In this document: in pieces, positions 33,406 through 56,200 of the stretch
How the letters are laid out: each line of letters begins with the position of its first letter
Numbering within the stretch: the stretch's first letter is position 1
From: Naegleria gruberi
Taxonomy: Eukaryota
Length of the DNA: 64,000 nt
Strand: one strand, 5' to 3'
Assembly: GCA_000004985.1 (NCBI GenBank)
Contig: GG738854.1
The notes under the pieces: model-generated
Told to the model about the DNA's origin: nothing
What the model saw: only the letters and a program-made list of their open reading frames with translations
Database searches by the model: none
Translations under genes and position numbers: made by a program

Positions 33406-35390
33406 ATGTTTCGAAACAGCCATCAAGAGACGTCAAATTTTGCATCAGACGAAAGTGAAGAGAAAGTTGAAGATACAAACGATGAATCATTAGTGAAAAG
33501 ATATGAAAATGAATTGGTACATATAACAGGAACAGAAAATGTTTACGGGTTTAGTTCTTCAACAAGTGCAGAAAGAGTTTCGAATAGTGAATTGATGGTT
33601 TTAGGAAAGGCTGTCACCGAAGGCATTCAACGTTTGAATATTCAAGAAGAAACAGAAGATGGTCCTTCTTCCGTCATTAGTGACAATCGAATAGTTTCAG
33701 AGCCATCATTATCACTCGAAACATTAGTCGAAACTATGCAACAACTCGAAGATTCTCAGAGAACAAACTCGCAACCAAATCAAACTCAACCTCTCACTTC
33801 AAAATTCATTCCCAAAGTAGATCACATACCACATAATGATCCTCAAGATTTGAATTTACTTTCGGATGCTTTCGGATACAGCAGTGCTTATTATTGTTTC
33901 GGTTCTAATGAAGAGAATTTCCTTTCACTGGACTATTCTGCACTTGCTACAAGTGGAGATTCGTATAATGGTGAAGTGATTTCAAAAGTTATGAGAAAAT
34001 CCTTTACAAATCAATCAGTTGTTTTAAACGAAAGTCAACAAGCAAGGAGTGGCTTGGGATTGGTAGATACTAATCAAAATGTTGACACTTCTCCATTCAA
34101 GGTTAGATGTTTGGGTGGAAATGAAGTAGTGGAACATATTAGAATTGGTGCCTACAACTTGGGAGTTATTACACGAAACCTTTCTAATAACTTTTCTAAT
34201 GGAAACTCTAAAACTAACTGCTATATTTCTGGATCTAACGAAAGAGGTCAATTCGGCAGACCAAAATCATTTAAGGGATCGAATGGTCTCATTAAAATTG
34301 ACCATTTCGACAAGAATAATCTAACTTTGAAAGATATTGCCTTTGGCTCTTATTTCACCTTATTTCTAACTGAATGTGGAAAGGTTTTCTCCTGTGGAGA
34401 GAATGAAAATGGTCAACTGGGAACCAATTCTATTTCCAACCAATACGAAATCAAACAAATGCGTGTCATTCATCCAGAAACTAAACTAGAAGAATTTGTT
34501 ACTGACATTGAAACTGGCGCCTTTCACACACTTGCCAAAACTTTGAGTGGAAACATTTATTCATGTGGATATAACTGTTGGGGGCAGTGTGCCATCTCTG
34601 AAATTGATGGAGATGTCATGGTTCCAACACTAATTGATAAATTTGGAAAGGACAAGATTGAGATTGAAAGAGTTATTTGTATTGAACATAATACTTTCTT
34701 TATTACAAAAGCAAATCCATATTCTGAAATTTATGGTAAGTTTTTGTTGTGTTATCAAATAATTATTAAAAGATTTGTTGGAAATTAGGTTGTGGATTCT
34801 CAAAGAAAGGTCAATTGGGAAAGGATTTTGGAGAGGCAGTTAGAAATCCAGTGAAACTGGATTTTTTCACAGGGAAGGATTTGAGTGTTAAGAGTGTGAA
34901 TGGTGGTTGGGGTCATGTCTGTATTGTAACTAATGGAGGTCAAGTATTCTCACAAGGATTGAATGATTATGGTCAATTGGGATTGGGTGATTTAGAATCA
35001 AGAAAATCGCCAACTTTGGTTCCATTCTTTGATCATCTTTACAAAAATTGTAAACTTGATAAGATAGAACAAGTCAGATGTGGAAGTTATCATTCTCTAT
35101 TCCTCACTCGTTCAGGAAAACTCTTTGGATGTGGATACAATGAGATGGGATCCATTGCCTTAGGAAATGAACATTCATGGATTTCCACACCAACCCTAAT
35201 TGTCCAATTCCCAAATTGCCTAATTGGAGAACCATTCTATGAATTGGAGGTTAAAACGTGGTGCTACACAACTTGCATTCTTGTAAAGAAGAGATTTAAG
35301 AGAATTGAGAATATGTTTGGCAGGTTGAGGAATTTATTGGCAAATGAAGAATTTAATTTTGGAGATGTTAAGATTATTTCATTGAATTAG
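33406..35390 (+). CDS. RCC1-repeat (regulator of chromosome condensation-like) protein
   Basis: Exon 1 is 33406..34735. A 53-nt GTAAGT..ATTAG intron spans 34736..34788. Exon 2 is 34789..35390. The N-terminus (about 270 aa) is acidic and Ser-rich. It is followed by at least six RCC1 blades with the GxNxxGQLG motif: GSNERGQFGRP, GENENGQLGTNS, CGYNCWGQCA, GCGFSKKGQLGKD, GLNDYGQLGLGD, GCGYNEMGSIALGN. The start is cgaaaaaaATG. Confidence 0.65.
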
Positions 35391-35507: not shown

Positions 35508-37033
35508 ATGATTAACATGTCAATGAAATCAATTTCACGTGAAATTAAAAAAATGTCTCATTGGTTTAAAAACAATAATGTAGAGAGTGAAGATGATTCA
35601 GAGGAGGAAGCAGATGGAGAATATGTCGATGAAGAGAATGATGTTGCTGTTCAGGCACAAGCTTCCAATTCTGAACAGCTCTTGGTCAGCGTTTTGAGAT
35701 ACCTAGGAATAGATGATGAGACACTGAACAAGTTAGCTGATGAAAACTACATTTCTTCATTACAAAGCAACTTGATTGACATTCCTTCGTATTTACAAAC
35801 CAAGTTGGACAGCATTTTCTCAACATCTTTGAATAATTTTGAGTATGACAGCTGTCTTGGTGGAGGTGGTTGTGGAGTTGTGTTGAAATGTAGACACAAA
35901 ATGGATGGTAAAATGTACGCTCTAAAGTTTATTCCCTTTGCTGATGAAGACGATGATTCGAATGGTCAAATATCCATCAATGAAGCATTGAAAGAAGTCA
36001 AAATTTTGTCTTCACTGCATCACGAGCATACAGTACGATATTACAATAGCTTTATTGAAAAGGAAATTCCAGAATCATTTAAAAAAGACATTATCCATGT
36101 TTGTAAAGAAAATGCAATAGAGATTTCTGATAAGTTTCTCGTCATTCAGATGGAATGTTGCTTCACTAACTTGGGTTCATTCCTCGACAAATATAAAATT
36201 GGAAAAGGAGAAAGAAACCAACTCAGATCTTTTCTTAGACAAACACTTACTGGACTCTCCTATCTCCATAGAGAGGGAATTGTGCACTACGATATCAAAC
36301 CTCATAACATTCTAATCAGTGAAGAAAACAAAATCAAGATTACTGATTTTGGATTGAGTGCTACAGCAGGAAGATCCTCTGTTGGAGAGTGTGCTGATGA
36401 TTGTGGAACATCTCTTTATTTTACTGACAAATTTCAAAAAGAAGAAAGGGATTTGTTTGCTTTGGGAATTACTTATTTCCTAATGTAAGTAAGGGTACTT
36501 AGTTGAATAGTAATTCAATATAAATAATCGATAGGATTAACAATGATAATCGTGAGGCCAGTAAATTGAAACAAGACCCAAATAATTATGAATTCTCAAT
36601 TGATTTTACAGATATGGACAAGATGTTGATTAAGAAAATGCTTACTAATCCAACTAGTGCAGATGAGTTGATTAAAATAATTGACAAGAGCAAATATTTT
36701 TGCTGCAATTGCAATTTAGAACGTATTGGAATGGTACAGTTCATTGAGCATGAGAAATCTGAAGCGCATGTCAAAAAAATTGACCTCAACAAACAGCTTT
36801 CCAATATTACCGACGCAACCAATGCTCTAATTCGTATTTCTCAATCATGCAACATTCCTGAACCAATCTATAGCCATCCTTTAAATACAAGTTTCACTTG
36901 TAAGATAGATTTCAAAGCTAAAAGTCTGACTTCAAATGTTCATTCTACGAAAAAAGCTGCCAAAAACGAAGCTTCTCAATTAATGTTGGATCTTATTAAG
37001 GGAGAATGTTGTCAATTATTGAAAGACTCATAA
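35508..37033 (+). CDS. Protein kinase with C-terminal U1/JAZ-type C2H2 zinc finger and dsRNA-binding motif
   Basis: Exon 1 is 35508..36484. A second ATG at 35552 follows an A-run. A 50-nt GTAAGT..GATAG intron spans 36485..36534. Exon 2 is 36535..37033. The kinase domain has LGGGGCGVVLKCRH, YALKFI, HYDIKPHNILI (a non-RD kinase), ITDFGLS and DLFALGITYFLM. The next element is YFCCNCNLERIGMVQFIEHEKSEAHVKK (C-x2-C-x12-H-x5-H, a U1/matrin/JAZ-like finger). The last is a dsRBM-like segment, NALIRISQSCNIPEPIY...FTCKIDF...STKKAAKNEASQLMLDLI. Confidence 0.6.
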
Positions 37034-38046: not shown

Positions 38047-38825
38047 TTAGTTCAATAATAAAATAGACGAAAGTTTTTTGTTCGAAAGATTTTAACTTCA
38101 CCACCACTGAAGATTTCTTACTCATTTACATATCAGAAGATACCAACACTCAGTTTTCGATATTTTACAAGAGGAACTTTCATAGTTTTGATAACTGAAG
38201 CAATTGTGAATACCACCAATATTAGACAAGAACCCAGAAGAACACCACTAACATCTTCTACAAACAACCACAAATTCCATGCCAATTTCTGTTCGGCCGA
38301 ATCGTCTAGATTTGTACAGATGATAACAGAATGAAATAGAACTTACAGTATCATGACTTTCAGCGTAGTCCATTCTTAAATTTTCCTATTGCCATAATAA
38401 TCCAATGATATTGGAAGGTAAGGATCACTTGGAATCAATAAGGATCTTGTTCTCAGTGCCATACTACTCAATTATTAAGAGTTCATTGTGAATTGGAAGC
38501 GCAATATTATCACACACAAGATTATGTCGGACATTTAAGGTATTATACTCTGTGTGAGAGGGAGAAATATTAAGCCACTGTACAGATCGGTCACCTACCC
38601 AACCACTATCAAACTCCACTTAATCAATGTCCAACGAATGGAGAATTAGTTTTGTGTGTGGTCATGAGAAGAGACATCAGTTTTAATGGAGGAAATGTTT
38701 GGCGGGAATGTTGTGGACTTGTTAATTTGTGCTTGCGAGATGATTCAACACCAATCGATTTAAAGATGTGTGTTGAATTGTTTGTGGAATCATCAAAAAA
38801 AAACAAGCTTAACACACAACTCAAT

Positions 38826-40226
38826 ATGACTGAGGAGAATATCAAGAAATTCTCTTGGGAAGAAATTGAGAAACACAACCATGAGGAAAGTGCTTGGTTG
38901 GTTATTGATGGAAAGGTTTATGATGTAACCAAGTTTATTCCTCATCATCCTGGTGGTGATTACTTGTTATTGGGAGCTGGCAGACATTCGACTGAATTGT
39001 TTCTCAGTAATCATCCAGCCAAAATCCTAAACAATTCGAAAGCTCTATTAGAAAAGTATTACATTGGAGAGGTTGAACAAGAAACAATCGTCACTAAAGA
39101 AATGGTTCAAAAGCAACATGTCAAGTATTCTTACAATCCACCAGATCAAACCAATTTCTATCTTGAATGTAGAGCTCAAGTTGACCAATATTTGAAAGAC
39201 AACAATCTCACTGCTAGAGATGTTCCTCAAATGTATCTCAAGATGATTCTTTCCCTGTGTATTTGGTTTATTCTATACTTGGGAACTTTCTATTATTTCG
39301 AATCAAAATTGCTCAGTTTCGTCGTTGCCATTGTTTGGGGTTGGTCCAATGCAAATATTGGTGTTAACATGATGCATGATGCTAATCATAGCTCCTTTTC
39401 CAATCATCCAACTATCAACAGAGTTGTGGCAGTTGTTTGTTTTGACATTTTAGGTGGTTCTTCCTATGTTTGGAAAATGATTCACTCAGTTGGCCATCAC
39501 GTAAACACAAATATTGAAGAACGTGATCCTGACATTCACACAGGAGAACCTCACTTTAGAAAAATCAAATCAGCTCAGAAACATCATTGGTGGTATGCCT
39601 ATCAACATTATTACTTGCCAGTTCTATATTGTTCCTTATTATTTGAGTTGGCATTTCGTGATTTCTTTGCCATGATGATTGGATCATGGGGAGGTGTCAA
39701 ATTTCAACCACCTCCAAAAGGAGAATATTTGCTCTTCTTTTCTACAAAGATTTGGTGGTTGACCTATTCATTGGCTTTCCCAATTTGGTTTTCTAATCAT
39801 TCAGTTGGAACTATTTTCATGTTGTGGTGTACTGCTTATATGGTTGCTTCATTCTTGTTGGTTTTAATTTTCCAAGTCAACCATGTCACAAATATTGCTG
39901 ATTCTTTCCATGTCAATCAACAAGATGGAATGGTTCATGCTGATTGGGCAGCAACTCAAGTAAGTGGATCGAGTAACTTTGCCTGTGGATCATGGTTATG
40001 GAATCACTTGTCAGGTGGCTTGTGTCATCAAGTAGAACATCATCTTTTCCCATCCATTAGTCATATCCATTATCCAAAGATTCAACCCATTGTTGAGAAG
40101 TGTGCTAAAAAGTATGGAATCAAGTATAATAGTTATGGAACTTTTTGGGAGGCCATTATTGGTCATTTCACATTATTAAGGGATATGGGTCAGAAGGGAA
40201 TTCAATCAAATTGGAAATCCATGTAA
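38826..40226 (+). CDS. Cytochrome b5-fused front-end fatty acid desaturase
   Basis: An N-terminal cytochrome b5 domain contains the HPGG heme-binding motif (VYDVTKFIPHHPGGDYLL). Three histidine boxes are present, HDANH, HSVGHH and QVEHH; the Gln in box 3 is typical of front-end (delta-4/5/6/8) desaturases. Four transmembrane segments are present. An alternative upstream ATG exists at 38664. Stop is TAA. Confidence 0.8.
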   Translation: MTEENIKKFSWEEIEKHNHEESAWLVIDGKVYDVTKFIPHHPGGDYLLLGAGRHSTELFLSNHPAKILNNSKALLEKYYIGEVEQETIVTKEMVQKQHVKYSYNPPDQTNFYLECRAQVDQYLKDNNLTARDVPQMYLKMILSLCIWFILYLGTFYYFESKLLSFVVAIVWGWSNANIGVNMMHDANHSSFSNHPTINRVVAVVCFDILGGSSYVWKMIHSVGHHVNTNIEERDPDIHTGEPHFRKIKSAQKHHWWYAYQHYYLPVLYCSLLFELAFRDFFAMMIGSWGGVKFQPPPKGEYLLFFSTKIWWLTYSLAFPIWFSNHSVGTIFMLWCTAYMVASFLLVLIFQVNHVTNIADSFHVNQQDGMVHADWAATQVSGSSNFACGSWLWNHLSGGLCHQVEHHLFPSISHIHYPKIQPIVEKCAKKYGIKYNSYGTFWEAIIGHFTLLRDMGQKGIQSNWKSM

Positions 40227-41264: not shown

Positions 41265-42587
41265 TTAGTTTTGATAAGGTTTCATTTCATAATCGGTGAA
41301 AGAAGGATACATGGATGATGATGGAGTGGAAATATTTTGAGAACTTTCCTGATAGTTGAATGTTGGATTGATTTGATTTTCAATTATTGGAGGAAGAGTA
41401 TATTTGTTGATTGCTTCAATGTACACTTGTGGATTGTTGGTTTTTTCGAGTAGAACTAATGTTGAGGGAGGATTAGTTTCATGTTTCAATTCAATGCATA
41501 ATTTAGAATGGGATGCTGTTAGGAAATGACTTTCGTTGTGATGTTCATCCTCAAAATCATTCCAAGCTCTGGAAATTGACGAGAGTTCAATTGAGATTAA
41601 TTCAACTTTCCAACCATTTGCCTTCATAATCATAATTTTCATATTTGTTAACAATACATTAACACTAAATTTGTTAAAAGTATGTTTGTAAAATGCAATG
41701 AATATAACTAAACAGAGCCAAGCAGCACCAACGCTCAAAATGGAAGCAATTGTTAAAAAGGAAATTACTGTAAATAATATAAGTGGAATAATTGCAATGA
41801 GAATGTAAAATATTTTCATACGCCAAGAAATTCCACCCTCTTGATAAAATTCATGATATTGCAATTCCTCATCTGAAATTAATTGGGATGCTGCAATATT
41901 TCTTTGATTAACATTACCAAATATGGATTTGGCATCTTTCAGTCCATTCCATTTTGAAAAAACTGATTCTCCTTGGACACTCTTCTCAAAATGTCCACAA
42001 AATAGAAAAACATCCTTTTCCCTTCCCTTATAACTCTTGAACATTACAATAAATATGGTCACACACTTGGCCACAGCAAGAGTCGCACCAATTGTAATAC
42101 AGAAATAGATTAGCAAATTTCGTCCCCCAAAACTCTCAAATTCTGGATTGCTCATGAGTGAAATATCTTGATTTTTAACTTTTTCATGATTTCTCATCAT
42201 TTGAAAAACATTTCCACGACAAGGAAACTGACCACCATAATATTTCTTACAAGTTTCTGCCTTGTTGGCCGAATCTGATCGACAAAATTCATTCCATTCC
42301 ACTTGAGTTGGATAGCCCATCATGGAAACATTGGCATTATAAAAGTACACCAAGCCATCAGAGCTCGTTTTCATATTGGACAAGCTCTCCACTTGACATG
42401 TAAAACCTCTATAGTGCAACAATTGTGTCATGTCCAGAAATATACAGGACATGAAAAGAAACACTGCAGACACTAGCGGAATCACGAGTCTCGCAGCAAT
42501 ATTTCCACAATTGATATAGACCAGCTTTTTTGTGTGGTTAGATTCGGAAAGTGATGAAAAATTGGTGTGCTGCCGATTTATAGACAT
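41265..42587 (-). CDS. Hypothetical multi-pass membrane protein with Cys-rich luminal region
   Basis: 440-aa ORF from ATG to TAA with four hydrophobic segments (for example IPLVSAVFLFMSCIFL, LLIYFCITIGATLAVAKCVTIFIVMF, IFYILIAIIPLILFTVISFLTIASILSVGAAWLCLVIFIAF). A Cys-containing loop lies between TM1 and TM2. Confidence 0.45.
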   Translation of the reverse strand: MSINRQHTNFSSLSESNHTKKLVYINCGNIAARLVIPLVSAVFLFMSCIFLDMTQLLHYRGFTCQVESLSNMKTSSDGLVYFYNANVSMMGYPTQVEWNEFCRSDSANKAETCKKYYGGQFPCRGNVFQMMRNHEKVKNQDISLMSNPEFESFGGRNLLIYFCITIGATLAVAKCVTIFIVMFKSYKGREKDVFLFCGHFEKSVQGESVFSKWNGLKDAKSIFGNVNQRNIAASQLISDEELQYHEFYQEGGISWRMKIFYILIAIIPLILFTVISFLTIASILSVGAAWLCLVIFIAFYKHTFNKFSVNVLLTNMKIMIMKANGWKVELISIELSSISRAWNDFEDEHHNESHFLTASHSKLCIELKHETNPPSTLVLLEKTNNPQVYIEAINKYTLPPIIENQINPTFNYQESSQNISTPSSSMYPSFTDYEMKPYQN

Positions 42588-42728: not shown

Positions 42729-44018
42729 TTAGTTGTGGATGGCGTTGGCCAAACCAATTCTCATATTTTGCTTATCATAAACAGTGTAGAAGAGAGATTG
42801 GAAGAGAGAACCAAAGATCCATTGACCAGCTTTGAGTTGATCGGCCTTATTGATACCACCTTGACAGACAGAAGGTCCAAAGATTGGTGGCTTGTTTTCA
42901 ATGACAAAGTTATGTGGTTCAATAGAATATTCATTGCCACCAATGACAAAAGTAAAGGTTGGAATTCTAGAGAATTGAATTTGAGAACAATCAGCTGGAA
43001 GACTGACATTGGCAAAAAGTTGCATAGCAGAGAAGGTGATTGGATCAGTAAACATGGCATAAGCACTTGTATCAAAAGTAGCAAGACACTTGACTCCAGT
43101 ACCAGGACCACATGTTAAATAATTGACCAAATTACCATTAACCTTAAGACCATCGAATTCAATCATCCAATTCTTTGAACCAGTTGGAATTGGATAGAAA
43201 TTCATTGGACCCTTATAGTAATCAGTTGAGTAACCACCCAAAACCAAAGCTCCTTTACCCTTTTGCTTTTGTTGATTTGGATTCTTGAGTTCACTCAAAT
43301 AAATAGAAAAGACATAGCTGCTAACTAGTTTTTGTTGCACAACATAATCCATAATGGATGGGAATGAATAGACATAGTTTGCACTTGGTTCTGGACTCAA
43401 ATTCAAACCAAGGAATCCATCAAATTGCAAAAAGCTTTCCTCAAAAGAATCATCACTCTTAACCAATTCAGCAAAAGTAACATTCTTAATTGTCAAATCA
43501 GCTCCATTATCCAAAATAAGTCCCATTTGATCATTGGCAAGTGTTCCAAAGAATTCAAATTCTCCCAAATACCAATCAACTTGTCTTCCATCTTTCTTGT
43601 AAGTGCTTGACTTGGAAGAATCATACTTTGGATGTCTGAAACATTGCATTCCACACAATGTAGAAGTAACAGTCAATAATCCTCCATTAGTATTAACCAT
43701 AAGCTTGAAAGTATTACTCTTATCTGAACCAAAATGTACATTGGCATAATAATAGAACTGTTTTCATTGACAATTCATCAAAATCATAATAAATTCATCA
43801 AGTAACAATAAGTGTCATCATCATTAATATTAATATAAAAATTTAAATATTTAGCAACGTACATTGTTATAATCCTGAAGAGGAACAACCATCAATGATT
43901 CACCACTCACTCCCTTCATCTTCTCCTTTGAAAAGTTTCTCATTGGAATGGCTCCCGACACACAGACAGCCAAAGCCAACACGATGGCTACAGAAATTAT
44001 GGCAGTAAATTGACGCAT
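42729..44018 (-). CDS. Pepsin-like (A1 family) aspartic peptidase homolog, predicted catalytically inactive
   Basis: Exon 1 is 44018..43863 and carries the signal peptide MRQFTAIISVAIVLALAVCVSGA. A 105-nt GTACGT..AACAG intron spans 43758..43862. Exon 2 is 43757..42729. The N-terminal lobe aligns with pepsins: QDYNNFYYYANVHFG...FKLMVNTNGGLLTVTS against QYYGEI.IGTP.Q.F.VIFDTGSSNLWV. DTG is replaced by NTN in the first catalytic motif. In the second, the sequence reads ATFDTSAYAMF, with DTS in place of DTG. Confidence 0.6.
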
Positions 44019-44365: not shown

Positions 44366-46123
44366 ATGATTCTCTATCTCTTGCTCTTTCTCACGGTTGC
44401 TCTGATGGTAGCAGCCTCATTGTTGCTCCCCTTCGTAACGAGTATACAATATCCGAAGAGGAATCGTTTTCAATTAAAACAAGCACAACATTTTCCGATA
44501 TGGTTGGTTGTATTGGTAGAGTTTAGGAGGAGAGTTGTGTTTTTATTGGATTTTATTGTTCATTATATTCATGTAAATTATACAATGAAGCCACAAGAGT
44601 TGAGTCCGAAAGTTGGAGAGTATGGAAAATTGGATGTTGAAATTGTCAAACCAATTAAAGATGACACTCCACAACAACATTTTGGAATGTTATCACCTAC
44701 AGATGCTCCTTTTCCACCTTCACATTATTGTTTTCAATTTGAAGGATTTTTGGATAGAAAATTGTTTGTAGAATCCCTTTCGGAAGTTTTAAAGCACATT
44801 CCTAGATTGGGTTCTAAATTGGTCGAGTTCAAATCTTTGGATGAATTGAAGAGAGGAACTGCTGGATGGTTTGATGAGTTGGGTAATATGGAGAGAAGAA
44901 TTGTTGAAGGCAGACTTTTGAATGCTAAAAAGCCAATAACACTTTTTGATTTGAGAGATGCCCAATTGGAAGTTTGTTTTGCTGAAGATGACACTATTAA
45001 AACAAATGATGAAACTGGATTATTGACAGCCACTGATTTGGCAAAGAATATGCACATTCTTTCTGTGTTCGGTGTTAGAGGACCAATCAAGGTTATCCAC
45101 TCCGAACCAACAGATCCACTCACAAGACTTCAAGTTACTTATTTACGTAAAGCAAACAAGACTGCTCTCACCATTTATATGGATCATGCTGTTGGAGATG
45201 CTTCTTCCATCTCAATGTTCATGCAATTGTTGGGTGATATTTTGAGTGCAAAGCAAACTGGAAAGGAATTCAAACCACGTAATCTTCCAGTTTGCAATCC
45301 TGTTCCTATCTTTAAATTTGGATACAATAAGGAAGCAGAAAAGTTAGATGATTTCCTATTCACTTATTATGATCCTACTGCATGCTATTCCTTCTTCAGA
45401 GCTGAAGTATTCAAATATCTAGATCAAAACTCTAAAAATCCAGCAAAAATTATTGCCAAAGAAATTACTGTCAATAAGAAACAATTGGATCAATTGAAAA
45501 AGAAGATTTTGAACGAAACTCCTGAACTGAATGATGTTGCCTTCAGCACCAATGACATGTTAAATGTTTTACTTTTGAGATCTGTTGCTTTTGGAGACAA
45601 GATTAATAGAATTGGCAGCGAAAAGTTATTGACATTGAGATATGTTGCTTCATTTAGAGAACGTTGTGATTATATTACTAGTAATTATTTTGGAAATGCT
45701 TTTGGAATTATCTTTGATAGTGTATCCAAGAAGGAATTGTTGGAAATGACTACTGGTGAATTAATCCTCTTAGCAAAGAAGAATACTGAAAAGACTGTTA
45801 ACAATCAAGGTTATTGGGAAACTAAATTGGAAGAAATGAATCAAAGATATTTCGACCCTCTCCAAGTTGACTTTGGTTTCCCTGCCTTTGAAGGAAGTGA
45901 AAACTTTATGGGAGTCACAAATTGGGTCAAACCAATGTTAGAAATTGGTTCTCACTTCCAAGATAAATCCTATCTGGGTATCAGTACTCTTTGCATGCCA
46001 TTCCCTCATGTAAATAAGATTCTACCAACCTCAACAACTGATCCAGATGGTGGTGTTAGATTGGTGCTTTCCTTGTATGAGCCTGAATACTTGTATTTCG
46101 TTGGAGAAATTCCAAAAGTTTAA
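44366..46123 (+). CDS. HxxxD-motif acyltransferase (CoA-dependent acyltransferase superfamily; WS/DGAT-, BAHD- or condensation-like)
   Basis: 585-aa ORF from an A-run ATG (caaaaATG) to TAA. The N-terminus is a signal-anchor-like MILYLLLFLTVALMVAASLLLPF. The catalytic-type motif is YMDHAVGDASS (HxxxD). An alternative internal start sits at 44585 (MKPQELSPK). Confidence 0.55.
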   Translation: MILYLLLFLTVALMVAASLLLPFVTSIQYPKRNRFQLKQAQHFPIWLVVLVEFRRRVVFLLDFIVHYIHVNYTMKPQELSPKVGEYGKLDVEIVKPIKDDTPQQHFGMLSPTDAPFPPSHYCFQFEGFLDRKLFVESLSEVLKHIPRLGSKLVEFKSLDELKRGTAGWFDELGNMERRIVEGRLLNAKKPITLFDLRDAQLEVCFAEDDTIKTNDETGLLTATDLAKNMHILSVFGVRGPIKVIHSEPTDPLTRLQVTYLRKANKTALTIYMDHAVGDASSISMFMQLLGDILSAKQTGKEFKPRNLPVCNPVPIFKFGYNKEAEKLDDFLFTYYDPTACYSFFRAEVFKYLDQNSKNPAKIIAKEITVNKKQLDQLKKKILNETPELNDVAFSTNDMLNVLLLRSVAFGDKINRIGSEKLLTLRYVASFRERCDYITSNYFGNAFGIIFDSVSKKELLEMTTGELILLAKKNTEKTVNNQGYWETKLEEMNQRYFDPLQVDFGFPAFEGSENFMGVTNWVKPMLEIGSHFQDKSYLGISTLCMPFPHVNKILPTSTTDPDGGVRLVLSLYEPEYLYFVGEIPKV

Positions 46124-47719: not shown

Positions 47720-48037
47720 TAATTAGTTATTAGTGAAAGATTTTTCAGAATTGTTCGAGTTGTTGGAGTTGATGAAGTGATGTGGAATATCAAGGCAACT
47801 TGTGGAGGAACTGTGTTGAGATATTTTTTTATGTTGGGTTATTAATTGAAATGTCAGTTTGACATGCGATAGAGGACTTGAGAGGATTACAACCATGACT
47901 TGATTATCGTGAAAGATATTTTACATTGTATCCATGAAGAAATCTTTAAACAACATAATGGTGTTTGTAAAGAATGTTAAATAGTATTGAATATTAATCA
48001 ATTAATATTTAAATGCATTTTTAAATATTTAAAAAAA

Positions 48038-48814
48038 ATGCGAATAAGTCAGGTGCTGCGGAATCACAAATCCTCACCATCAAAAACCCTTTTAGATGAA
48101 TGCATCACCAATTTTCTCTCCACTCTCCGAAATCATCGAGAATTTATTCTGGAAAATCCACAACTCAACCGTTTGAAATTAAATCATGATGGATTAAATA
48201 AGGATAGTCAGCCGAGAGTAATTGATACGAGTGTTGTAGCATTGAGACGGGAATATATTGAGAATTTAATTCCAAAACCAACACCTTCGGAATTTTTTCA
48301 AACCATGTTAAGGGAATCTAAATATTATTCGGAATTGATAGATTTGAATGTAATTGATCAATTTTGTGTATTTTGCAATAGAGAAATTGTTTCTGAGGGA
48401 TTGATTGAGGAAAGTGAGAATTTTATGGCACTTTATAATATTAGACCTGTTTTTCCTGGTCATTCTCTGATTATTCCAAAGAAACATGTGACTAGATTTT
48501 CATCTCTTCCATTGGAGCATGCTAAGGAATTTGTGGAATTTTCACAATTGGTAATTCGAGCATTAAAACAGATTCACAATACTGATTCGATAGAGTTACT
48601 GATACAGGAAGGACCTTTGAGTGGACAATCTATTTGTCATCTTCATTTACATTTAATGCCGAGAATACCTAATGATATGCCAAATCCAGAAGATGATTGG
48701 ATGGAATTCTTTTCAAGAAATGAACATTCGGCAAGATTACTCACGAAAGAAGAACGACAGGAATATGCTAAACATGTTAGACAAGTCATGAAGAGTTTAC
48801 GTTCCAATTCATAA
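48038..48814 (+). CDS. HIT (histidine triad) family protein with N-terminal extension
   Basis: The ATG at 48038 follows aaaaaaaATG. The HIT core is ALYNIRPVFPGHSLIIPKKHV ... with the histidine triad HLHLHLMP. The total length is 258 aa. Stop is TAA. Confidence 0.7.
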   Translation: MRISQVLRNHKSSPSKTLLDECITNFLSTLRNHREFILENPQLNRLKLNHDGLNKDSQPRVIDTSVVALRREYIENLIPKPTPSEFFQTMLRESKYYSELIDLNVIDQFCVFCNREIVSEGLIEESENFMALYNIRPVFPGHSLIIPKKHVTRFSSLPLEHAKEFVEFSQLVIRALKQIHNTDSIELLIQEGPLSGQSICHLHLHLMPRIPNDMPNPEDDWMEFFSRNEHSARLLTKEERQEYAKHVRQVMKSLRSNS

Positions 48815-50344: not shown

Positions 50345-53077
50345 ATGCAAACTACATCTCTTCAAGAAAATTCAAACATTAGAAAAGAATTGTTCAACAA
50401 AAACAACTCCTCATCATTAAATTGTCAAAGCTCACATCATCAACATACAACTTTCTCAACTATCATGTGTTCCTCCTCAACAATGGAATCAAATTTTAAT
50501 TTACCTCCAAGCAACAAGAAGGAAGAGAAAAATCAACAAGAAAACAAAGAAGAAAAATACAGCAGTGCTGGTGGCGACAATGGAAAACATTATCAAGAAC
50601 AACAACGGATAGATGTTGCTGTAACATCATCATCAGCATCAGCATTGGAAGGAAAAGAGGATGGTATTACTCGGACAGTGTCTAGTTTAAATCCTTCTCC
50701 ATGTACAAATAATTATAATAATAATACAACAACAATAATAATAACCGATAATAATCAAAACGAGAGAGGAAAATTAGAAATGTATATTGATACTAATAAT
50801 TTACGTTTACCACTTTCTCCTTCTGCATTGTCTGTCTCCTCATCAACATCAGATGGCACACCAACTAAAATTCCAACCTCCACTAATTGCTCACCATCAC
50901 GACCTTTATCTACTATTTTGCATAATAATAATAATAATAACAATACTAATAGTGCCTTGCTCTCATCGAGTACATGGTGGAGAGAAAGATTATTCCCTAA
51001 GGAATTACTACCAAATTCTACTCTCACATCAGCACGAGCTTCATCATCAGCACTGAATTTCAACATAAGTCTCATCGATGAATCAACATTTGATACACTT
51101 GCTCCTTCATCATTGTCCTCTTCTCGTTTGGATGCTATTCATACATCTTCAGAGGGTGAGTTTTCAGAGGAAACACTCCTAGAACATATAAGCAAGGAGT
51201 TGTGTTCGAATATGCGTGAGGAAGAGCTTGAACAAGTTTCCACACCAGCTGTGGTTGACCATATATTACGAGAGATGAAGTTTTCAAAACAGAAATGTTC
51301 ACTAGTACACTTGGCAGCAAAACATAATCGTGTAGAACTCTTGCAGTGGTTTAAAAGATGCTGTTGCGATAAAAAGTGTTCCTACAAGCACATACCCATC
51401 TCTAAACTACTCAACTCTGACAAATCTTCATCAATAACGGATTCATCATTTTCTATTTTGGAAAGTAAGAGATTTAGCAGGAATTTTGGAAAAAACTTTA
51501 ATGTTGCCATAAGGCACTTCGACTCATTGGATGATGACAGTTCTTCCCAACATTCCAAACAGTGTCTACTTAAACAACAATCCTTGTGGTTTGCTTTGGA
51601 CCATTATTCTGCAACACCTCTCTTTTATTCTTGCAAGCATGCACAAGCCATGGAGGCAAGTGCTTTTCTGTTATCTCAACCAAGTGTCTCACAGAAACAG
51701 CTCAACCATCACCATGATCAATTTGGAAACCTTCCAATAACTATTGGATTTAGAAATGGAAATTTCAGACTATGTGACTTGTTGGTTTTGTTTGGAGCCA
51801 AAATTGATGTTACTTCAGGAATTCTTGCTGAAAGTCTACTTCACAAAGTTTGCAGAGATGGTGCAGATTTGGAGGTTGTTAAATATTTGGCTAGGTTTGT
51901 TTTATTCATATTTATTTTCAATATATCATCATTTATTCAATTCAGGAATGCACCAAAAGTCTTACTCAAAAGAAATCAAAGAGATGAAAGTGCACTGTTT
52001 GCCTGCATTAGGGATTTGAGAATGGTTCTCATTCCATCAAGTGGAGGCTCCTTCAGCAGTGATATAAGTCTTTTCCACAATAGAAAGAGTTCTAATGGAG
52101 TTAGTGATACATCATTCACTCTCCTTCATAATATTCTTTCCTATGGATCGGAATTGTTTGGAAGGGAAACATTTGAGAAGGCTGTTCTCATGAAAAACTC
52201 ATTCGGAATGAATATTTTAATGACGAGTATATTGTACAATGATATGGACGCAATGAAAGTGATTTGTCTTGGACTTTCCAACTATTGCAAACCTGGAGGC
52301 GCTAGAAAAGTTGATCTCAATACTTCACAAATGAGTGGAGATTCGACTGGAAGTGGTAGTAGTTCAGAGGGTATTGCTGCTGTGGATGATCAGATACCTT
52401 CTCCAAGAAAGAGAAATTCTCTCCGATTACGACTTCACCAGAGAATTTTATCGATGGATAAAAGGGATTCAAACAAAAGCATTCTGAAAACAATTGTATT
52501 CGATAAAGATAAGCAAGGAAAGACAATACTCCATCTCATAATTGAGACAGCTATTCAATTAGAAGATAATGGAGCATCATGGGACGATTTGATTGACTGG
52601 TTTGATGGATTCCAATGGCTTTGTTTGTGGCTAACTGAAGTTTTTTCACAAACGTTGAATGTTAGAACAAATGGTGAGTGGACTGCAGATTGTGGGCTGT
52701 GCCACTTTTTTGAAGCTAGAGACTTGCAAGGTTACTCACCATATGGAATGGTGGTATCCAAACAACCAAATGAGGAAATGAACTTTTTGGAAAAGGAGAG
52801 CACCGATGATAGAGTACTCTTCTGGCCAAGAGTTTTGGAGTTCATTCAAACAACGATAAAGAAGTGGGCAGTCTCTGAAAAGGTCAAGAATACATCTGAG
52901 AATAACCTGAATGGTTCTCGTAACAATTTCAGATATGCTGAAGTGACAGGAAGCAGGGGATTTTTAAATTCTGAATCAGATTCACTCGATTCCCTCTATG
53001 CAGATCAAGGTGAGGGAATTTTAGGCAAAATGAAAAGAAGATTCAAGAGAACTCAAAGTGTCGATTTGGACAAATAA
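50345..53077 (+). CDS. Ankyrin-repeat-containing protein with long low-complexity N-terminus
   Basis: 910-aa ORF. The N-terminal 300 aa are rich in N, S and T. Ankyrin-like units are present (SLVHLAAKHNRVELLQW, TPLFYSCKHAQAMEASAFLL, GNLPITIGFRNGNFRLCDLLVLFGAKID, SLLHKVCRDGADLEVVKYL). A probable 51-nt in-frame intron spans 51895..51945 (GTTTGT..TTCAG); it reads through as a hydrophobic junk segment if retained. Confidence 0.5.
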   Translation: MQTTSLQENSNIRKELFNKNNSSSLNCQSSHHQHTTFSTIMCSSSTMESNFNLPPSNKKEEKNQQENKEEKYSSAGGDNGKHYQEQQRIDVAVTSSSASALEGKEDGITRTVSSLNPSPCTNNYNNNTTTIIITDNNQNERGKLEMYIDTNNLRLPLSPSALSVSSSTSDGTPTKIPTSTNCSPSRPLSTILHNNNNNNNTNSALLSSSTWWRERLFPKELLPNSTLTSARASSSALNFNISLIDESTFDTLAPSSLSSSRLDAIHTSSEGEFSEETLLEHISKELCSNMREEELEQVSTPAVVDHILREMKFSKQKCSLVHLAAKHNRVELLQWFKRCCCDKKCSYKHIPISKLLNSDKSSSITDSSFSILESKRFSRNFGKNFNVAIRHFDSLDDDSSSQHSKQCLLKQQSLWFALDHYSATPLFYSCKHAQAMEASAFLLSQPSVSQKQLNHHHDQFGNLPITIGFRNGNFRLCDLLVLFGAKIDVTSGILAESLLHKVCRDGADLEVVKYLARFVLFIFIFNISSFIQFRNAPKVLLKRNQRDESALFACIRDLRMVLIPSSGGSFSSDISLFHNRKSSNGVSDTSFTLLHNILSYGSELFGRETFEKAVLMKNSFGMNILMTSILYNDMDAMKVICLGLSNYCKPGGARKVDLNTSQMSGDSTGSGSSSEGIAAVDDQIPSPRKRNSLRLRLHQRILSMDKRDSNKSILKTIVFDKDKQGKTILHLIIETAIQLEDNGASWDDLIDWFDGFQWLCLWLTEVFSQTLNVRTNGEWTADCGLCHFFEARDLQGYSPYGMVVSKQPNEEMNFLEKESTDDRVLFWPRVLEFIQTTIKKWAVSEKVKNTSENNLNGSRNNFRYAEVTGSRGFLNSESDSLDSLYADQGEGILGKMKRRFKRTQSVDLDK

Positions 53078-53288: not shown

Positions 53289-56200
53289 ATGTCTGTTGCA
53301 GAAGCTTCTAATAATGGTGCAGCTGCAACTACATTTATTGAAAGGAGTATTAATTTTAATGAATCATCAACCATACAACAATCATCATCACAACAACGAG
53401 AAAATCAACATGTGTCGGGAAGTTTTATAGGAAGCAATACGAGTAGTTCATCTAGCTCGACCAATTTTTCAGCAACAATGATGAAAAGTATTAAGGAAGC
53501 TATTGTGTCCTATATAATTTCAATGCAATACAAGCCACTGAGGCAGGGCAAAAAGTTTATGCTTCTCTCTGTTTTGTATCATTTGTATATAATGTGGATT
53601 TCCATCTTTTTACCAACACTAGGCGATTATAATTGGGGAGAATATGCAAATTGGATATTCAAGGCAGTAAATTATCCAGTAACCCTTTCACTAGATTTAA
53701 TTCCCTATGGTGGCATTGAGGCTTTGGGAGCAATTGTGTTTGCAATCAGTGCCCTATCTGTTCTTGTTGTTATAATGGCAGTTGCGAGTGTTCATAGGAC
53801 GAGTAAACACATTGAGAGGGTGAGATTAATAGTAATGGTGACTGGACTTGTTCTCTCTCTGTTGGGACCACTCTTTGCATTTATTCTGACGGGCTTTACA
53901 GATTGTGAATACAAGCAAAAGGTGTACTTTGAGAGTATAGATGATAAGGCATATGCTCTTTCTAGATATCCAGAAGCAGAGTGCTTTGGGGATAATATGT
54001 ACCTTTACATTATTTCAATTATTGCAGTATTCGGAATTTGTCTATCCATATTATGCACCTTAATTTCCTTCTCATCAAGTTGGAAGAGTGACATGGTATT
54101 CAAAACAGTTGTCCATTATCCATTATCATACTTGGTTATTAGTAATATTCTTCAAATGTTCATCATGTATTTTATTCATGATGAGTTCATGTATGGAAGA
54201 GCAATCCTTCACTTGATTATTTCAGCAAGTTGGATTCCTATACTATTCTATGAACTGCCCTTCCAATACAGATATGAAAATTCAATTTATTCTGGAGTGG
54301 GTTTTGCAAGAATAGGAGCATCAATTGGTTCTCTGATATCTTCCCTTGCCAACTCAGCTGACAATTCAGGTTTTGGTTTGGGAATGTTTGGCTTAACGTT
54401 CGCTCTTATTATCATTTCATTCATTGGTGGAGTAATAGGAATGGAATTATACATTAGATTATCTACTCACAAGATTAGAAGTTACATGTTGTCTATTGTT
54501 GAGAAAACTCTATCTGTTAGTGGATCATTGCCTTCGAAATTCAAAGAAAGAGCCAAATACATTCTGGAAAAAGAGGCCACTTCAATTTACTCCCATTTCA
54601 TTGAAACACAACAGGCAGGATATTTAAGAATATTTATTCGATTCAGCATTGATCAAAACTCTAAAAACAGCTCAGAAGCCATCCTCACAAACACTGATTT
54701 ATCTCTGTATTTCATTAAGGGTGCGTCAACTCAAAGATCATTCAACGATAGCAAAACTCTTCTCTATTCATCCATGTTAATTTATTTCAACTATGGAGAT
54801 GGTAATTTAGGATCAATGTATGCAAAAGGGTTGTTGAAAATCTTGGCAAAGCAAAAATTGAATATACCAGAAGTAATTATGTTAACAGAGTTTTCTAAGG
54901 AAATTAAGGATGAGAATAGTGTAAATTCATCTGATCTCGAACAATTATTGAATAAGGTAGAGAGTAATATAGCTGAATTGAAGTCCCTCCATAAGGCCTT
55001 CTGGAAAGAATATTTGCAAGATGTAATTGAAGTGGGAACTTTGGAATCGATTAATAACAAGTGTTCACAACTGATGAGCCAATGCGAAACTATTTTCAAT
55101 AATAGGCTTTCCAGATACAAACACAATAAGAATTTCCTCAGAGCGTATGCACAATTTTTAAACGAAATCAAATTTGACAAGGAAACTGCCTTTGAAATAT
55201 TCCAAGACGCAGCCATTGTTGACGAAGATGAGCCATCTAAAAAACGTGTTCTTGCTAAGAGTAATTTATTCACAGAATATGGTAAACAGCATTCTGAAAC
55301 CAATTTGGGGTTTTCTCTAGATGGCTTAAAGGCTAGCAACCAAAAGAGTATGGACATTGAAACAATTCATGAAGATCAAATGTTGGATGGAGTTGAGAAT
55401 GATCCACTTGCAAAACGGGAGTTCATTTTCAAAAGTGCTCTCTCCCAACCACAACAAGGAGGATATCATATGGGATCTGTTATCCTGTTCTGCTTTATAT
55501 CCTTCTCTTTTGTGCTCCTTGCCTTAGTTTTGAATGTTTATTATTCAGTGGAAGTTCTTTCAAATGTCAAGTTTGTTCAGCAAGTTTGTGAGCCAACTGT
55601 TTCTTCATATGCCATTTTGAAACAAATCAGAAATAATCAAATACTCCTTCAAGCTAAAAATCAGGGTCTAGATGTTGATGAAACAGATATTATGGGTATT
55701 CTTAAGGACGAGACAAACGAAAATATTACTTCCATACAATCTGTTTGGAAGGAGAGACTTAATTTCTATGTTGAACATATTGAACATGTTAAAAAGATGT
55801 CACAAGGTAAAATTGTTGGAAAATTCACACCTGAAATGTATGAAGATTACAATAGTGAAACAAATGAAATATTTGTTCCTGTGATTCAAACAAAGAATCA
55901 AAATTCATTCATTGAGGTCATTAAGAAGAATGTTTCACTCTCTGAAATATCATCACTCTTGATTGATATTGTTGAAAATTATCCATCAGGAGGATACAAT
56001 GAAACATTGAAAGAATATGATTTCATGTTGGTATTCTTGAATAGGGAAACTTTCACAAATGCCTTTGTGAAAACATGTTTCAGTTTCTTGGAAAGATGTG
56101 AACTTGACTCCAAAAATTTCAACAATTACTACCTATACTTTTATGTTTCTGTATTGTCATTTTACATTCTTTACACAGCCATCTATATTCTCTATGTAAG

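What the first reader, a model, noticed from the sequence alone, without database searches (positions are those of the whole stretch)
42729..44018. Secreted pepsin-fold protein with both catalytic DTG motifs destroyed
The protein aligns along its length with A1 aspartic peptidases (signal peptide, YYG-like start, flap region, two lobes). The first catalytic triad FDTGSS is MVNTNGG, and the second, VDTGTS, is ATFDTSA. Loss of the nucleophile-activating Asp in lobe 1 and of the Gly in lobe 2 predicts no peptidase activity. Inactive pepsin homologs have been recruited elsewhere as binding proteins or inhibitors. Examples are mammalian pregnancy-associated glycoproteins and plant xylanase-inhibitor TAXI proteins. 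This may be an independent example in a protist.
Basis: partly seen in the sequence, partly recalled or inferred. Interest (0 to 1): 0.5.

Follow-up and report, generated by a model that had tools for sequence, protein, structure and literature searches.

The report
Dead pepsin-like protein in Naegleria
This Naegleria gruberi gene encodes a secreted-type protein with the pepsin fold whose catalytic machinery is broken yet which selection still preserves; such inactive pepsin relatives are already known in animals and plants, so this is a sound but fairly ordinary new example.

Summary
Window 44018..42729 (minus strand, one 105-nt intron) encodes a 394-aa protein identical to the N. gruberi "predicted protein" NAEGRDRAFT_82503. 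It matches Pfam Asp (PF00026) end to end at E=5.6e-40. AlphaFold2 gives a confident pepsin fold (pLDDT 87), closest to cathepsin D, chymosin, renin and pepsin.

At the pepsin catalytic positions it reads N74-T-N (for D32-T-G) and D281-T-S (for D215-T-G). It also lacks flap Tyr75, Trp39, Gly78, Tyr189, Thr218 and Asp303. All six disulfide cysteines, the signal peptide and an N-V-T sequon are kept.

Orthologs exist only in N. fowleri, N. lovaniensis, a metagenomic Naegleria and Willaertia magna. All share Gly34→Asn/Asp and the flap changes, but different lineages lost different catalytic Asp residues. This suggests activity was lost before the Naegleria/Willaertia split.

dN/dS between N. fowleri and N. 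lovaniensis is 0.12-0.16, about the same as two intact cathepsin D paralogs (0.08-0.14). The gene is therefore functional. It is a lineage-specific A1 pseudo-peptidase, probably a non-enzymatic luminal or secreted binding protein. Its partner is unknown. About 14% of nearby A1 domains are similarly degenerate.

The parts
43863..44018 (-). Exon 1 (codons 1-52): start ATG, signal peptide and a shortened pro-region, ending ...PLQDYNN
   Evidence: Sequence read and spliced. The product is identical to the NCBI model. The intron falls at the same point (after NN/KN, before F/V-[YF]-Y) in all five orthologs.
43953..44018 (-). Predicted signal peptide, residues 1-22 (MRQ + hydrophobic FTAIISVAIVLALAVCV + VSG|A)
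   Evidence: Read from the sequence (n-region Arg, 17-residue hydrophobic core, small residues at -3/-1). No signal-peptide predictor was available. AF2 gives a low-confidence helix at 5-17. All orthologs have an equivalent hydrophobic N-terminus.
43758..43862 (-). Intron, 105 nt, GTACGT...ACAG, phase 0
   Evidence: There are in-frame stops if it is left unspliced. Ortholog introns at the same position are 59, 70, 40 and 49 nt.
42729..43757 (-). Exon 2 (codons 53-394 plus stop): the whole pepsin-fold domain
   Evidence: AF2 pLDDT 87, pTM 0.86. Foldseek target-normalised TM 0.85-0.90 to cathepsin D, chymosin, renin and pepsin.
43686..43694 (-). Degenerate catalytic motif 1: N74-T75-N76 in place of D32-T33-G34 (codons aat act aat)
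   Evidence: The same NTN is in N. fowleri and N. lovaniensis. The metagenomic Naegleria has DTD and Willaertia has DSD.
43557..43568 (-). Remodelled flap tip: L116-G117-E118-F119 in place of Y75-G76-T/S77-G78
   Evidence: Anchored by invariant G123 (=G82) and D128 (=D87). AF2 places a hairpin turn at 117-118. F119 and W114 are invariant in the clade.
43065..43073 (-). Degenerate catalytic motif 2: D281-T282-S283 in place of D215-T216-G217 (codons gat aca agt)
   Evidence: The register is fixed by the Cys276(+5) spacing and by Willaertia DTG. The metagenomic Naegleria has SSG here.

Best explanation
The gene encodes a lineage-specific pseudo-peptidase of peptidase family A1 (pepsin/cathepsin D). 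It enters the secretory pathway through a signal peptide. It folds into the normal two-lobed, three-disulfide pepsin scaffold. It cannot carry out aspartic-peptidase catalysis: the lobe-1 Asp is Asn, both psi-loop glycines carry side chains (Asn76, Ser283), and the flap Tyr75/Trp39 pair is gone. The residues that hydrogen-bond the catalytic aspartates (Ser35, Thr218) and Asp303 are also replaced. Activity was most likely lost once, before Naegleria and Willaertia diverged, through Gly34->Asp/Asn and the flap remodelling. After that the two catalytic Asp positions drifted independently. The protein has nevertheless been kept under purifying selection as strong as on the active paralogs. It therefore has a non-catalytic job, most plausibly as a soluble binding or scaffold protein in the endolysosomal/phagosomal lumen or the medium. 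That job probably uses conserved surfaces other than the old substrate cleft. Shown here: homology, fold, motif states, phyletic distribution and selection. Inferred: inactivity (from established A1 enzymology), secretory location (from sequence features) and the binding role (by elimination and analogy).
For: Homology and fold: PF00026 at E=5.6e-40 over the full length. PDB cathepsin D at E=2.5e-33. AF2 pLDDT 87, pTM 0.86. Foldseek target-normalised TM 0.85-0.90 to tick and rat cathepsin D, chymosin, renin and pepsin. Active-site table in pepsin numbering: D32->N, G34->N, S35->G, W39->T, Y75->L, T77->E, G78->F, Y189->N, G217->S, T218->A, S219->Y, D303->S. C45/C50, C206/C210, C249/C282, Y14, G82, D87, G122, W299, I300 and G302 are kept. 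Orthologs: N. fowleri (64% identity), N. lovaniensis, a metagenomic Naegleria (66%) and Willaertia magna (45%). They are confirmed by the shared intron position and by synteny: a PF02458 transferase lies divergently upstream in N. gruberi, N. lovaniensis and N. fowleri, and an RCC1 gene lies downstream in three of them. Motif states across the clade are NTN/DTS (three species), DTD/SSG (one) and DSD/DTG (Willaertia). Selection: N. fowleri versus N. lovaniensis dN/dS is 0.118-0.155 for this gene, 0.103-0.143 for intact paralog 1 and 0.083-0.122 for intact paralog 2. The more distant ortholog pairs give dN/dS 0.07-0.57, and 0.07-0.23 among the Naegleria pairs, with dS mostly at or above 1 (saturated), so those ratios are unreliable, especially for the Willaertia pairs. 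Clade restriction: in an exhaustive HMM search of 1.84 billion representatives the clade representative scores 749 bits, the next hit scores 243 bits from two summed A1 domains, and the best single-domain hit (a canonical Anaeramoeba A1) scores 175 bits. Secretory features: hydrophobic N-terminus, six conserved Cys, and an N-V-T sequon invariant in all five orthologs.
Against: No biochemical or expression data exist for this gene or its orthologs in the library searched. Inactivity is inferred from residues. The histo-aspartic protease (HAP) of Plasmodium shows that an A1 protein lacking Asp32 can still cleave peptides. Willaertia keeps both Asp residues, so ancestral loss of activity rests on the Gly34->Asp change and the flap changes rather than on loss of a nucleophile-activating residue. 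I could not inspect model coordinates, so the active-site geometry was not examined. The binding-protein role has no direct support. The 28 cleft positions (chosen from my recollection of pepsin subsites) are less conserved than the rest (4/28 versus 116/322 invariant, Fisher p=0.02). This leaves the functional surface unidentified.
Confidence: 0.77

Rival explanations
1. It is still a peptidase that uses a non-canonical mechanism built around the retained Asp281, as the Plasmodium histo-aspartic protease does with His32 and Asp215.
For: Asp281-Thr282 is retained in four of five orthologs. Willaertia keeps both Asp residues. Selection is as strong as on the active paralogs. PDB HAP entries are detectable homologs at E about 1e-13.
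Against: Position 32 is Asn, which cannot act as a general acid or base, not His. The metagenomic Naegleria ortholog has lost Asp215 instead (SSG), so no single catalytic residue is conserved across the clade. The flap Tyr, Trp39, Thr218 and Ser35 are all lost. Cleft positions are the least conserved part of the protein, the reverse of what is expected for an enzyme.
Confidence: 0.07
2. It is a pseudoenzyme partner of the canonical Naegleria cathepsin D enzymes. It could act, for example, as a decoy for inhibitors, a chaperone or sorting partner, or an allosteric regulator.
For: N. fowleri, N. lovaniensis and W. magna each carry canonical DTG/DTG cathepsin D paralogs alongside this gene. One of them (A0A6A5CFU9) is found in N. 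fowleri extracellular vesicles (PMC9312180). Regulation of an active paralog is a common fate of pseudoenzymes (general knowledge).
Against: A1 peptidases are monomers with no known paralog heterodimers. No N. gruberi canonical cathepsin D appeared among the 120 best relatives of a heterolobosean-type cathepsin D, although those of N. fowleri, N. lovaniensis and Willaertia did. A pangenome paper places cathepsin D in the accessory genome (PMC9928731). If N. gruberi truly lacks the enzyme yet keeps this gene, a partner role is unlikely. That absence was not verified.
Confidence: 0.1
3. It is a proteinaceous inhibitor of glycoside hydrolases, in the manner of the plant TAXI-I and EDGP proteins.
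For: These are the best-characterised case of a pepsin fold reused as an inhibitor. There is a weak TAXi_N match at E=0.0015.
Against: The TAXi_N score of 19.2 bits is below the 30-bit cutoff, and there is no TAXi_C match. The nearest structures and sequences are classical cathepsin D/pepsin-type enzymes, not plant nepenthesin-like proteins. Nothing in the sequence points to a glycosidase target.
Confidence: 0.04
4. It is a decaying pseudogene or an annotation or assembly artefact.
For: The catalytic residues are lost, and the gene is annotated only as 'predicted protein'.
Against: The reading frame is intact, with a conserved intron, signal peptide and six Cys, in five species from two genera. 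dN/dS is 0.12-0.16, equal to the active paralogs. The NTN motif is reproduced in three independent genome assemblies.
Confidence: 0.02

Closest known systems
Cathepsin D / pepsin-type A1 aspartic peptidases (subfamily A1A), including the canonical Naegleria and Willaertia cathepsin D paralogs FDP41_007356, FDP41_003687 and ABK040_009568
   Same: Full-length homology, about 27-32% identity. The same bilobal fold. The same three disulfides and structural glycines. A signal peptide. Like the heterolobosean enzymes, the C-lobe segment before Cys249 is short compared with metazoan cathepsin D.
   Different: Both D-T/S-G motifs are degenerate. The flap Tyr75, Trp39, Tyr189, Thr218 and Asp303 are lost. 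The pro-segment is cut to about 20 residues in N. gruberi, N. fowleri and N. lovaniensis. The Cys206-Cys210 loop is longer, with 7 intervening residues against 3. There is a clade-specific basic insert, NxNQQxQKGKG. The clade sits on a very long stem branch.
Bla g 2 / Per a 2 / Lma-p54, inactive aspartic-protease homologs of cockroaches
   Same: They are secreted pepsin-fold proteins described as inactive aspartic proteases of unknown function, possibly binding proteins (PMC9541408). From memory, not tested here: Bla g 2 also carries Ser/Thr in place of the DTG glycines and lacks the flap Tyr.
   Different: They are insect proteins of independent origin. From memory, Bla g 2 keeps both Asp residues, whereas N. 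gruberi has Asn at position 32. No orthology: the Naegleria clade is monophyletic and separate.
Pregnancy-associated glycoproteins (PAGs) of ruminants
   Same: They are A1A-type paralogs, many with substitutions in or next to the catalytic motifs, glycosylated and secreted, and thought to act as peptide binders rather than enzymes (established knowledge; mentioned in PMC9541408).
   Different: PAGs are a recent, large, placenta-specific expansion that keeps a recognisable peptide-binding cleft. Here there is a single-copy gene per genome, of old origin (before the Naegleria/Willaertia split), and the cleft positions are the least conserved part.
TAXI-I / EDGP / basic 7S globulin, plant pepsin-fold inhibitors and binding proteins
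   Same: The pepsin fold with catalytic residues lost is reused for non-catalytic binding.
   Different: These belong to the plant nepenthesin-like branch with Pfam TAXi_N and TAXi_C. This protein fails both models (19.2 bits against a 30-bit cutoff; no TAXi_C hit).
Histo-aspartic protease (HAP, plasmepsin family)
   Same: It is an A1 homolog with Asp32 replaced, the psi-loop glycines replaced and the flap Tyr75 replaced. It is a detectable PDB homolog at E about 1e-13.
   Different: HAP has His at position 32 and remains active. Here position 32 is Asn, and no catalytic residue is conserved across the orthologs.

Membership tests
Peptidase family A1 (pepsin family), as a homolog | Significant full-length match to the Pfam Asp (PF00026) profile | tested here: met
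   E=5.6e-40, 138.1 bits against a 19.9-bit cutoff, residues 55-390 against profile positions 2-314 of 315.
Peptidase family A1 (pepsin family), as a homolog | Bilobal pepsin fold | tested here: met
   AF2 pLDDT 87, pTM 0.86. Foldseek E about 1e-30 and target-normalised TM 0.85-0.90 to cathepsin D, chymosin, renin and pepsin.
Peptidase family A1 (pepsin family), as a homolog | Three conserved disulfides (pepsin C45-C50, C206-C210, C249-C282) | tested here: met
   C87/C91, C268/C276 and C309/C350 align to them and are invariant in all orthologs. Disulfide formation itself is inferred.
Active A1 aspartic peptidase | N-lobe catalytic motif D32-T/S-G34 | tested here: not met
   N74-T75-N76. The register is the same in every alignment and is fixed by the +13 spacing to Cys87.
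Active A1 aspartic peptidase | C-lobe catalytic motif D215-T/S-G217 | tested here: not met
   D281-T282-S283. The Asp is kept and the Gly is lost. The two alternative automatic registers give T-F-D or G-T-G, also non-canonical.
Active A1 aspartic peptidase | Flap Tyr75 (with Trp39) over the active site | tested here: not met
   L116 at position 75 and T81 at position 39. Orthologs have I/L and T/Y. In 126 of about 147 neighbouring A1 domains, position 75 is Y or F together with canonical motifs.
Active A1 aspartic peptidase | Pepstatin-sensitive acid endopeptidase activity | not testable with these tools
   This needs recombinant protein and an enzyme assay.
TAXI-type xylanase inhibitors (Pfam TAXi_N PF14543 and TAXi_C PF14541) | Matches to both TAXi profiles above their gathering scores | tested here: not met
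   TAXi_N scores 19.2 bits against a 30-bit cutoff, and there is no TAXi_C hit.
Histo-aspartic protease type | His at position 32 paired with a conserved Asp215 | tested here: not met
   Position 32 is Asn (or Asp in two orthologs). Asp215 is Ser in the metagenomic Naegleria ortholog.
Pregnancy-associated glycoproteins / cockroach inactive A1 proteins | Common descent with those clades | tested here: not met
   The clade is restricted to Naegleria and Willaertia, is 100% monophyletic, and is not nested in metazoan sequences. The resemblance is functional analogy only.

The most novel reading that the evidence does not exclude
The old substrate cleft was not simply abandoned but rebuilt into a new ligand site. 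It would be lined by clade-specific residues: invariant Trp114 and Phe119 on the flap, aromatic Phe53/Tyr54, and His at position 189 in most orthologs. On this reading the protein is a heterolobosean-specific secreted or phagosomal receptor or inhibitor directed at prey or host molecules. The between-species variation in the cleft would then reflect an arms race rather than relaxed constraint. Because the brain-eating amoeba N. fowleri has the ortholog, it could be a previously unrecognised non-enzymatic virulence or feeding factor.
Probability: 0.1. Interest if true: 0.55.

Novelty: new member of a known kind. Interest (0 to 1): 0.3.

Why it matters
Catalytically dead enzyme homologs are a recognised and common class. 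About one in seven of the A1 domains nearest to this one is degenerate. Within the pepsin family they are documented in mammals, insects and plants. This finding adds a protist case with a clear history. The gene is single-copy and syntenic. It is older than the Naegleria/Willaertia split. Different descendant lineages lost different catalytic aspartates, while the scaffold stayed under selection as tight as on the working enzymes. That makes it a tidy natural experiment for the order of events in pseudoenzyme evolution. It also has practical uses. Protease inventories of N. fowleri that count 'Peptidase A1 domain' proteins should not count FDP41_007154 as a protease or drug target. The A1 protein seen in N. 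fowleri vesicles is the canonical paralog, not this one. None of this overturns current understanding, and the function remains unknown.

Tried and rejected
1. Automatic alignment of the N. gruberi sequence alone around motif 2 gave three registers: phmmer to PDB, my 38-sequence active-A1 profile, and MAFFT/BLASTP. I rejected the first two because of the Cys276-to-Asp281 spacing and the ungapped ortholog alignment to Willaertia 'DTG'.

2. The first splice attempt used 44017 as the start and was out of frame. It was corrected to 44018.

3. dN/dS between N. gruberi and the other orthologs is unreliable because dS is mostly at or above 1 and YN00 failed. I replaced it with the closer N. fowleri/N. 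lovaniensis pair.

4. The neighbour-joining tree (the first attempt timed out; redone) did not resolve where the clade attaches. The grouping with Tritrichomonas is probably long-branch attraction, so I make no claim about the parent lineage.

5. The near-coincident intron of canonical cathepsin D 1 lies after the codon for pepsin position 13, whereas this gene's intron lies after position 11. It is two codons off, so I did not use it as evidence of common descent.

6. The metagenomic Naegleria ortholog contains 'DSG' at 84-86, but this is 2 residues out of register with D32, so I rejected it as a catalytic motif.

7. A tblastn of the protein against the window found no paralog.

8. Literature searches by gene and protein identifiers, and for Naegleria plus aspartic, cathepsin D or pseudoprotease, found nothing on this gene. 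The supplements of the Naegleria pangenome paper had no relevant term.

9. The AlphaFold-database Foldseek library was unavailable, and model coordinates are not exposed. I therefore could not inspect the active-site geometry or the N. gruberi paralog content.

10. The PAG-like 'retained peptide cleft' idea is weakened by the low conservation of the cleft.
Full report
WHAT IS THERE. The window has about 34% G+C. The 394-aa product is identical to Naegleria gruberi XP_002680393.1 / D2V6X9 / NAEGRDRAFT_82503, annotated 'predicted protein', which identifies the window as N. gruberi DNA. The gene lies on the minus strand. Exon 1 is 44018..43863, a 105-nt GT..AG intron is 43862..43758, and exon 2 is 43757..42729 including the stop. 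A mechanical ORF list shows only the exon-2 ORF starting at Met72.

HOMOLOGY AND FOLD. Pfam Asp (PF00026) matches residues 55-390 against profile positions 2-314 of 315, at E=5.6e-40. TAXi_N is sub-threshold at 19.2 bits against a 30-bit cutoff. The best solved-structure relatives by sequence are cathepsins D and E, renin, pepsin, chymosin and plasmepsins. AlphaFold2, run with a 51-sequence alignment, gives pLDDT 87 and pTM 0.86. Only the signal peptide, the stretch just after it (residues 19-30) and the loop 211-218 are low-confidence. Foldseek against the PDB returns tick and rat cathepsin D, chymosin, renin and pepsin at E about 1e-30, with target-normalised TM 0.85-0.90.

ACTIVE-SITE STATES. 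I aligned porcine pepsin with this protein, its orthologs and canonical enzymes. It is self-consistent: 326 aa, with D32, Y75, D215 and the six Cys at the right indices. The alignment gives the following substitutions for N. gruberi:
- D32->N74
- G34->N76
- S35->G77
- W39->T81
- Y75->L116
- T77->E118
- G78->F119
- Y189->N248
- D215 = D281 (retained)
- G217->S283
- T218->A284
- S219->Y285
- D303->S369

The structural landmarks are retained: C45/C50, C206/C210, C249/C282, Y14, G82, D87, G122, W299, I300 and G302.

Motif 1 has the same register in every alignment. Motif 2 is harder. phmmer shifted it by two residues, and a profile built from 38 intact A1 sequences aligned 'GTG' 271-273 to DTG with low posterior probability. 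Three things settle the register as D281=D215. Cys276-to-Asp281 is +5, as Cys210-to-Asp215 is in pepsin. The five orthologs align here without gaps. Willaertia carries a canonical LDTG at that column. Whichever register is used, there is no D-T/S-G, and none occurs anywhere else in the protein. Established A1 enzymology says mutation of either catalytic Asp abolishes activity, and the psi-loop glycines and the flap Tyr are near-universal. On that basis the protein is predicted to be inactive as an aspartic peptidase. This is an inference, not a measurement.

ORTHOLOGS AND HISTORY. Two word-indexed searches and one exhaustive HMM search of 1.84 billion representatives find close relatives only in four places:
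- N. fowleri FDP41_007154
- N. lovaniensis C9374_008071
- a metagenomic Naegleria contig
- Willaertia magna ABK040_003125

In the exhaustive search the clade representative scores 749 bits. The next hit scores 243 bits, but that is the sum of two A1 domains in one protein. The best single-domain hit scores 175 bits and is a canonical DTG/DTG enzyme of Anaeramoeba.

Orthology is supported by the identical intron position. It is also supported by synteny. A PF02458 acyltransferase lies divergently upstream in N. gruberi (44366..46123), N. lovaniensis and N. fowleri. An RCC1-repeat gene lies downstream in N. fowleri, N. lovaniensis and the metagenomic contig.

The motif states (positions 32-34 / 215-217) are:
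- NTN / DTS in N. gruberi, N. fowleri and N. lovaniensis
- DTD / SSG in the metagenomic Naegleria
- DSD / DTG in Willaertia

All five lack Gly34, Trp39, Tyr75, Gly78, Tyr189, Thr218 and Asp303. The parsimonious reading is a single ancestral inactivation through Gly34->Asp and the flap remodelling, followed by independent loss of one or the other now-unconstrained Asp. A neighbour-joining tree gives the clade 100% bootstrap support and a very long stem. Its attachment among protist cathepsin D-like sequences is unresolved.

IS IT STILL A FUNCTIONAL GENE? For the N. fowleri/N. lovaniensis pair, where dS is usable (0.6-0.8), dN/dS is 0.118-0.155. The two catalytically intact A1 paralogs of the same two species give 0.103-0.143 and 0.083-0.122. 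All five orthologs keep a hydrophobic signal sequence, six cysteines and an N-V-T sequon. No ortholog has a C-terminal extension. The pro-segment is reduced to about 20 residues in N. gruberi, N. fowleri and N. lovaniensis, but is about 26 residues longer in the other two. That fits a protein that no longer needs zymogen control.

WHERE MIGHT THE FUNCTION RESIDE? I took 28 positions as lining the pepsin subsites; the list comes from memory of pepsin-inhibitor structures and is approximate. Only 4 of them (W114, F119, A357, I366) are invariant across the five orthologs, against 116 of the remaining 322 mature-domain positions (Fisher p=0.02). In working A1 enzymes the cleft is the best-conserved region. 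So the old cleft is either relaxed or evolving fast, and the conserved function probably uses other surfaces. Strongly conserved clade-specific segments include HP[KR]YDxxKSxTYKxDGRxVxW, KNVTFAELxK and the basic insert NxNQQxQKGKG, which is disordered in the model. I could not map these onto coordinates.

CONTEXT. N. fowleri has at least two canonical A1 enzymes. FDP41_007356 (= A0A6A5CFU9) is the 'Peptidase A1 domain-containing protein' reported in N. fowleri extracellular vesicles (PMC9312180). It is not the ortholog of this gene. No paper in the held library mentions this gene or its orthologs by identifier. No N. gruberi canonical cathepsin D appeared among the 120 best relatives of a heterolobosean-type enzyme, and a pangenome study puts cathepsin D in the accessory genome (PMC9928731). 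Whether N. gruberi lacks an active A1 enzyme was not verified.

HOW UNUSUAL IS IT? Among about 147 A1 domains from the 149 nearest cluster representatives, 126 have canonical motifs with Tyr or Phe at position 75. About 14% are degenerate in one or both motifs. Inactive pepsin homologs are documented in cockroaches (Bla g 2, Per a 2, Lma-p54), in ruminants (PAGs) and in plants (TAXI-I and relatives), mostly with unknown or binding functions (PMC9541408; the rest is general knowledge). This is therefore a new, independently derived member of a known kind.

VERDICT. The best explanation is a lineage-specific A1 pseudo-peptidase kept for a non-catalytic role in the secretory or endolysosomal pathway. 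I put the probability that it is inactive yet functional at about 0.75-0.8. The specific partner and mechanism are unknown. Interest is modest (0.3).

Noticed in passing
window 44366..46123 (+): A 585-aa intronless ORF matches Pfam Transferase PF02458 (BAHD-type acyltransferase, E=8e-10). It lies divergently upstream of the pseudo-pepsin gene. The same neighbour is present in N. lovaniensis (L006 1001-2755) and N. fowleri (L001 1059-2618), so the pair is a conserved syntenic block.
   Followed up: partly
L001 3268..5717 (N. fowleri): Two reverse-transcriptase (RVT_1) ORFs sit between the transferase and the pseudo-pepsin gene in N. fowleri. They are absent from N. gruberi and N. lovaniensis, which suggests a lineage-specific retroelement insertion into the intergenic region.
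   Followed up: no
window 41265..42587 (-): A 440-aa ORF immediately downstream has several hydrophobic segments and no Pfam match. In N. fowleri, N. lovaniensis and the metagenomic Naegleria an RCC1-repeat gene occupies this position instead, so synteny breaks here in N. gruberi.
   Followed up: partly
window 38652..40226 (+): ORF with an N-terminal cytochrome b5 domain fused to a fatty-acid desaturase domain (PF00173 and PF00487), a front-end desaturase-type architecture.
   Followed up: no
window 53289..58316 (+): A 1675-aa ORF with TPR repeats, a PAS domain and a C-terminal adenylate/guanylate cyclase catalytic domain (E=2e-51). Upstream of it, at 50345..53077, is a 910-aa ankyrin-repeat ORF.
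   Followed up: no
window 33406..34788 (+), 35508..36488 (+), 47987..48814 (+): An RCC1-repeat ORF, a protein-kinase ORF and a HIT-domain ORF. They are ordinary eukaryotic genes and were noted only for the gene map.
   Followed up: no
L007 / L008 (canonical cathepsin D 1 of N. fowleri and N. lovaniensis): This intact paralog has three introns. Its first intron lies two codons away from the single intron of the pseudo-pepsin gene. Its dS between the two species (about 0.3) is less than half that of the other two A1 genes (about 0.8), which may reflect codon-usage constraint in a highly expressed gene.
   Followed up: partly
one search hit list (not in the window): No N. gruberi canonical cathepsin D appeared among the best 120 relatives of a heterolobosean-type cathepsin D, although N. 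fowleri, N. lovaniensis, Willaertia and Acrasis did. N. gruberi may lack an intact A1 peptidase, which would make this pseudo-peptidase its only family member.
   Followed up: no
L003 (metagenomic Naegleria contig, ENA ERZ27315067): The prokaryote-style gene call on this contig, and on the N. fowleri contigs L004 and L005, truncated the protein at the intron. The database entries P0003 and P0004 therefore lack exon 1. The full protein was reconstructed here.
   Followed up: yes
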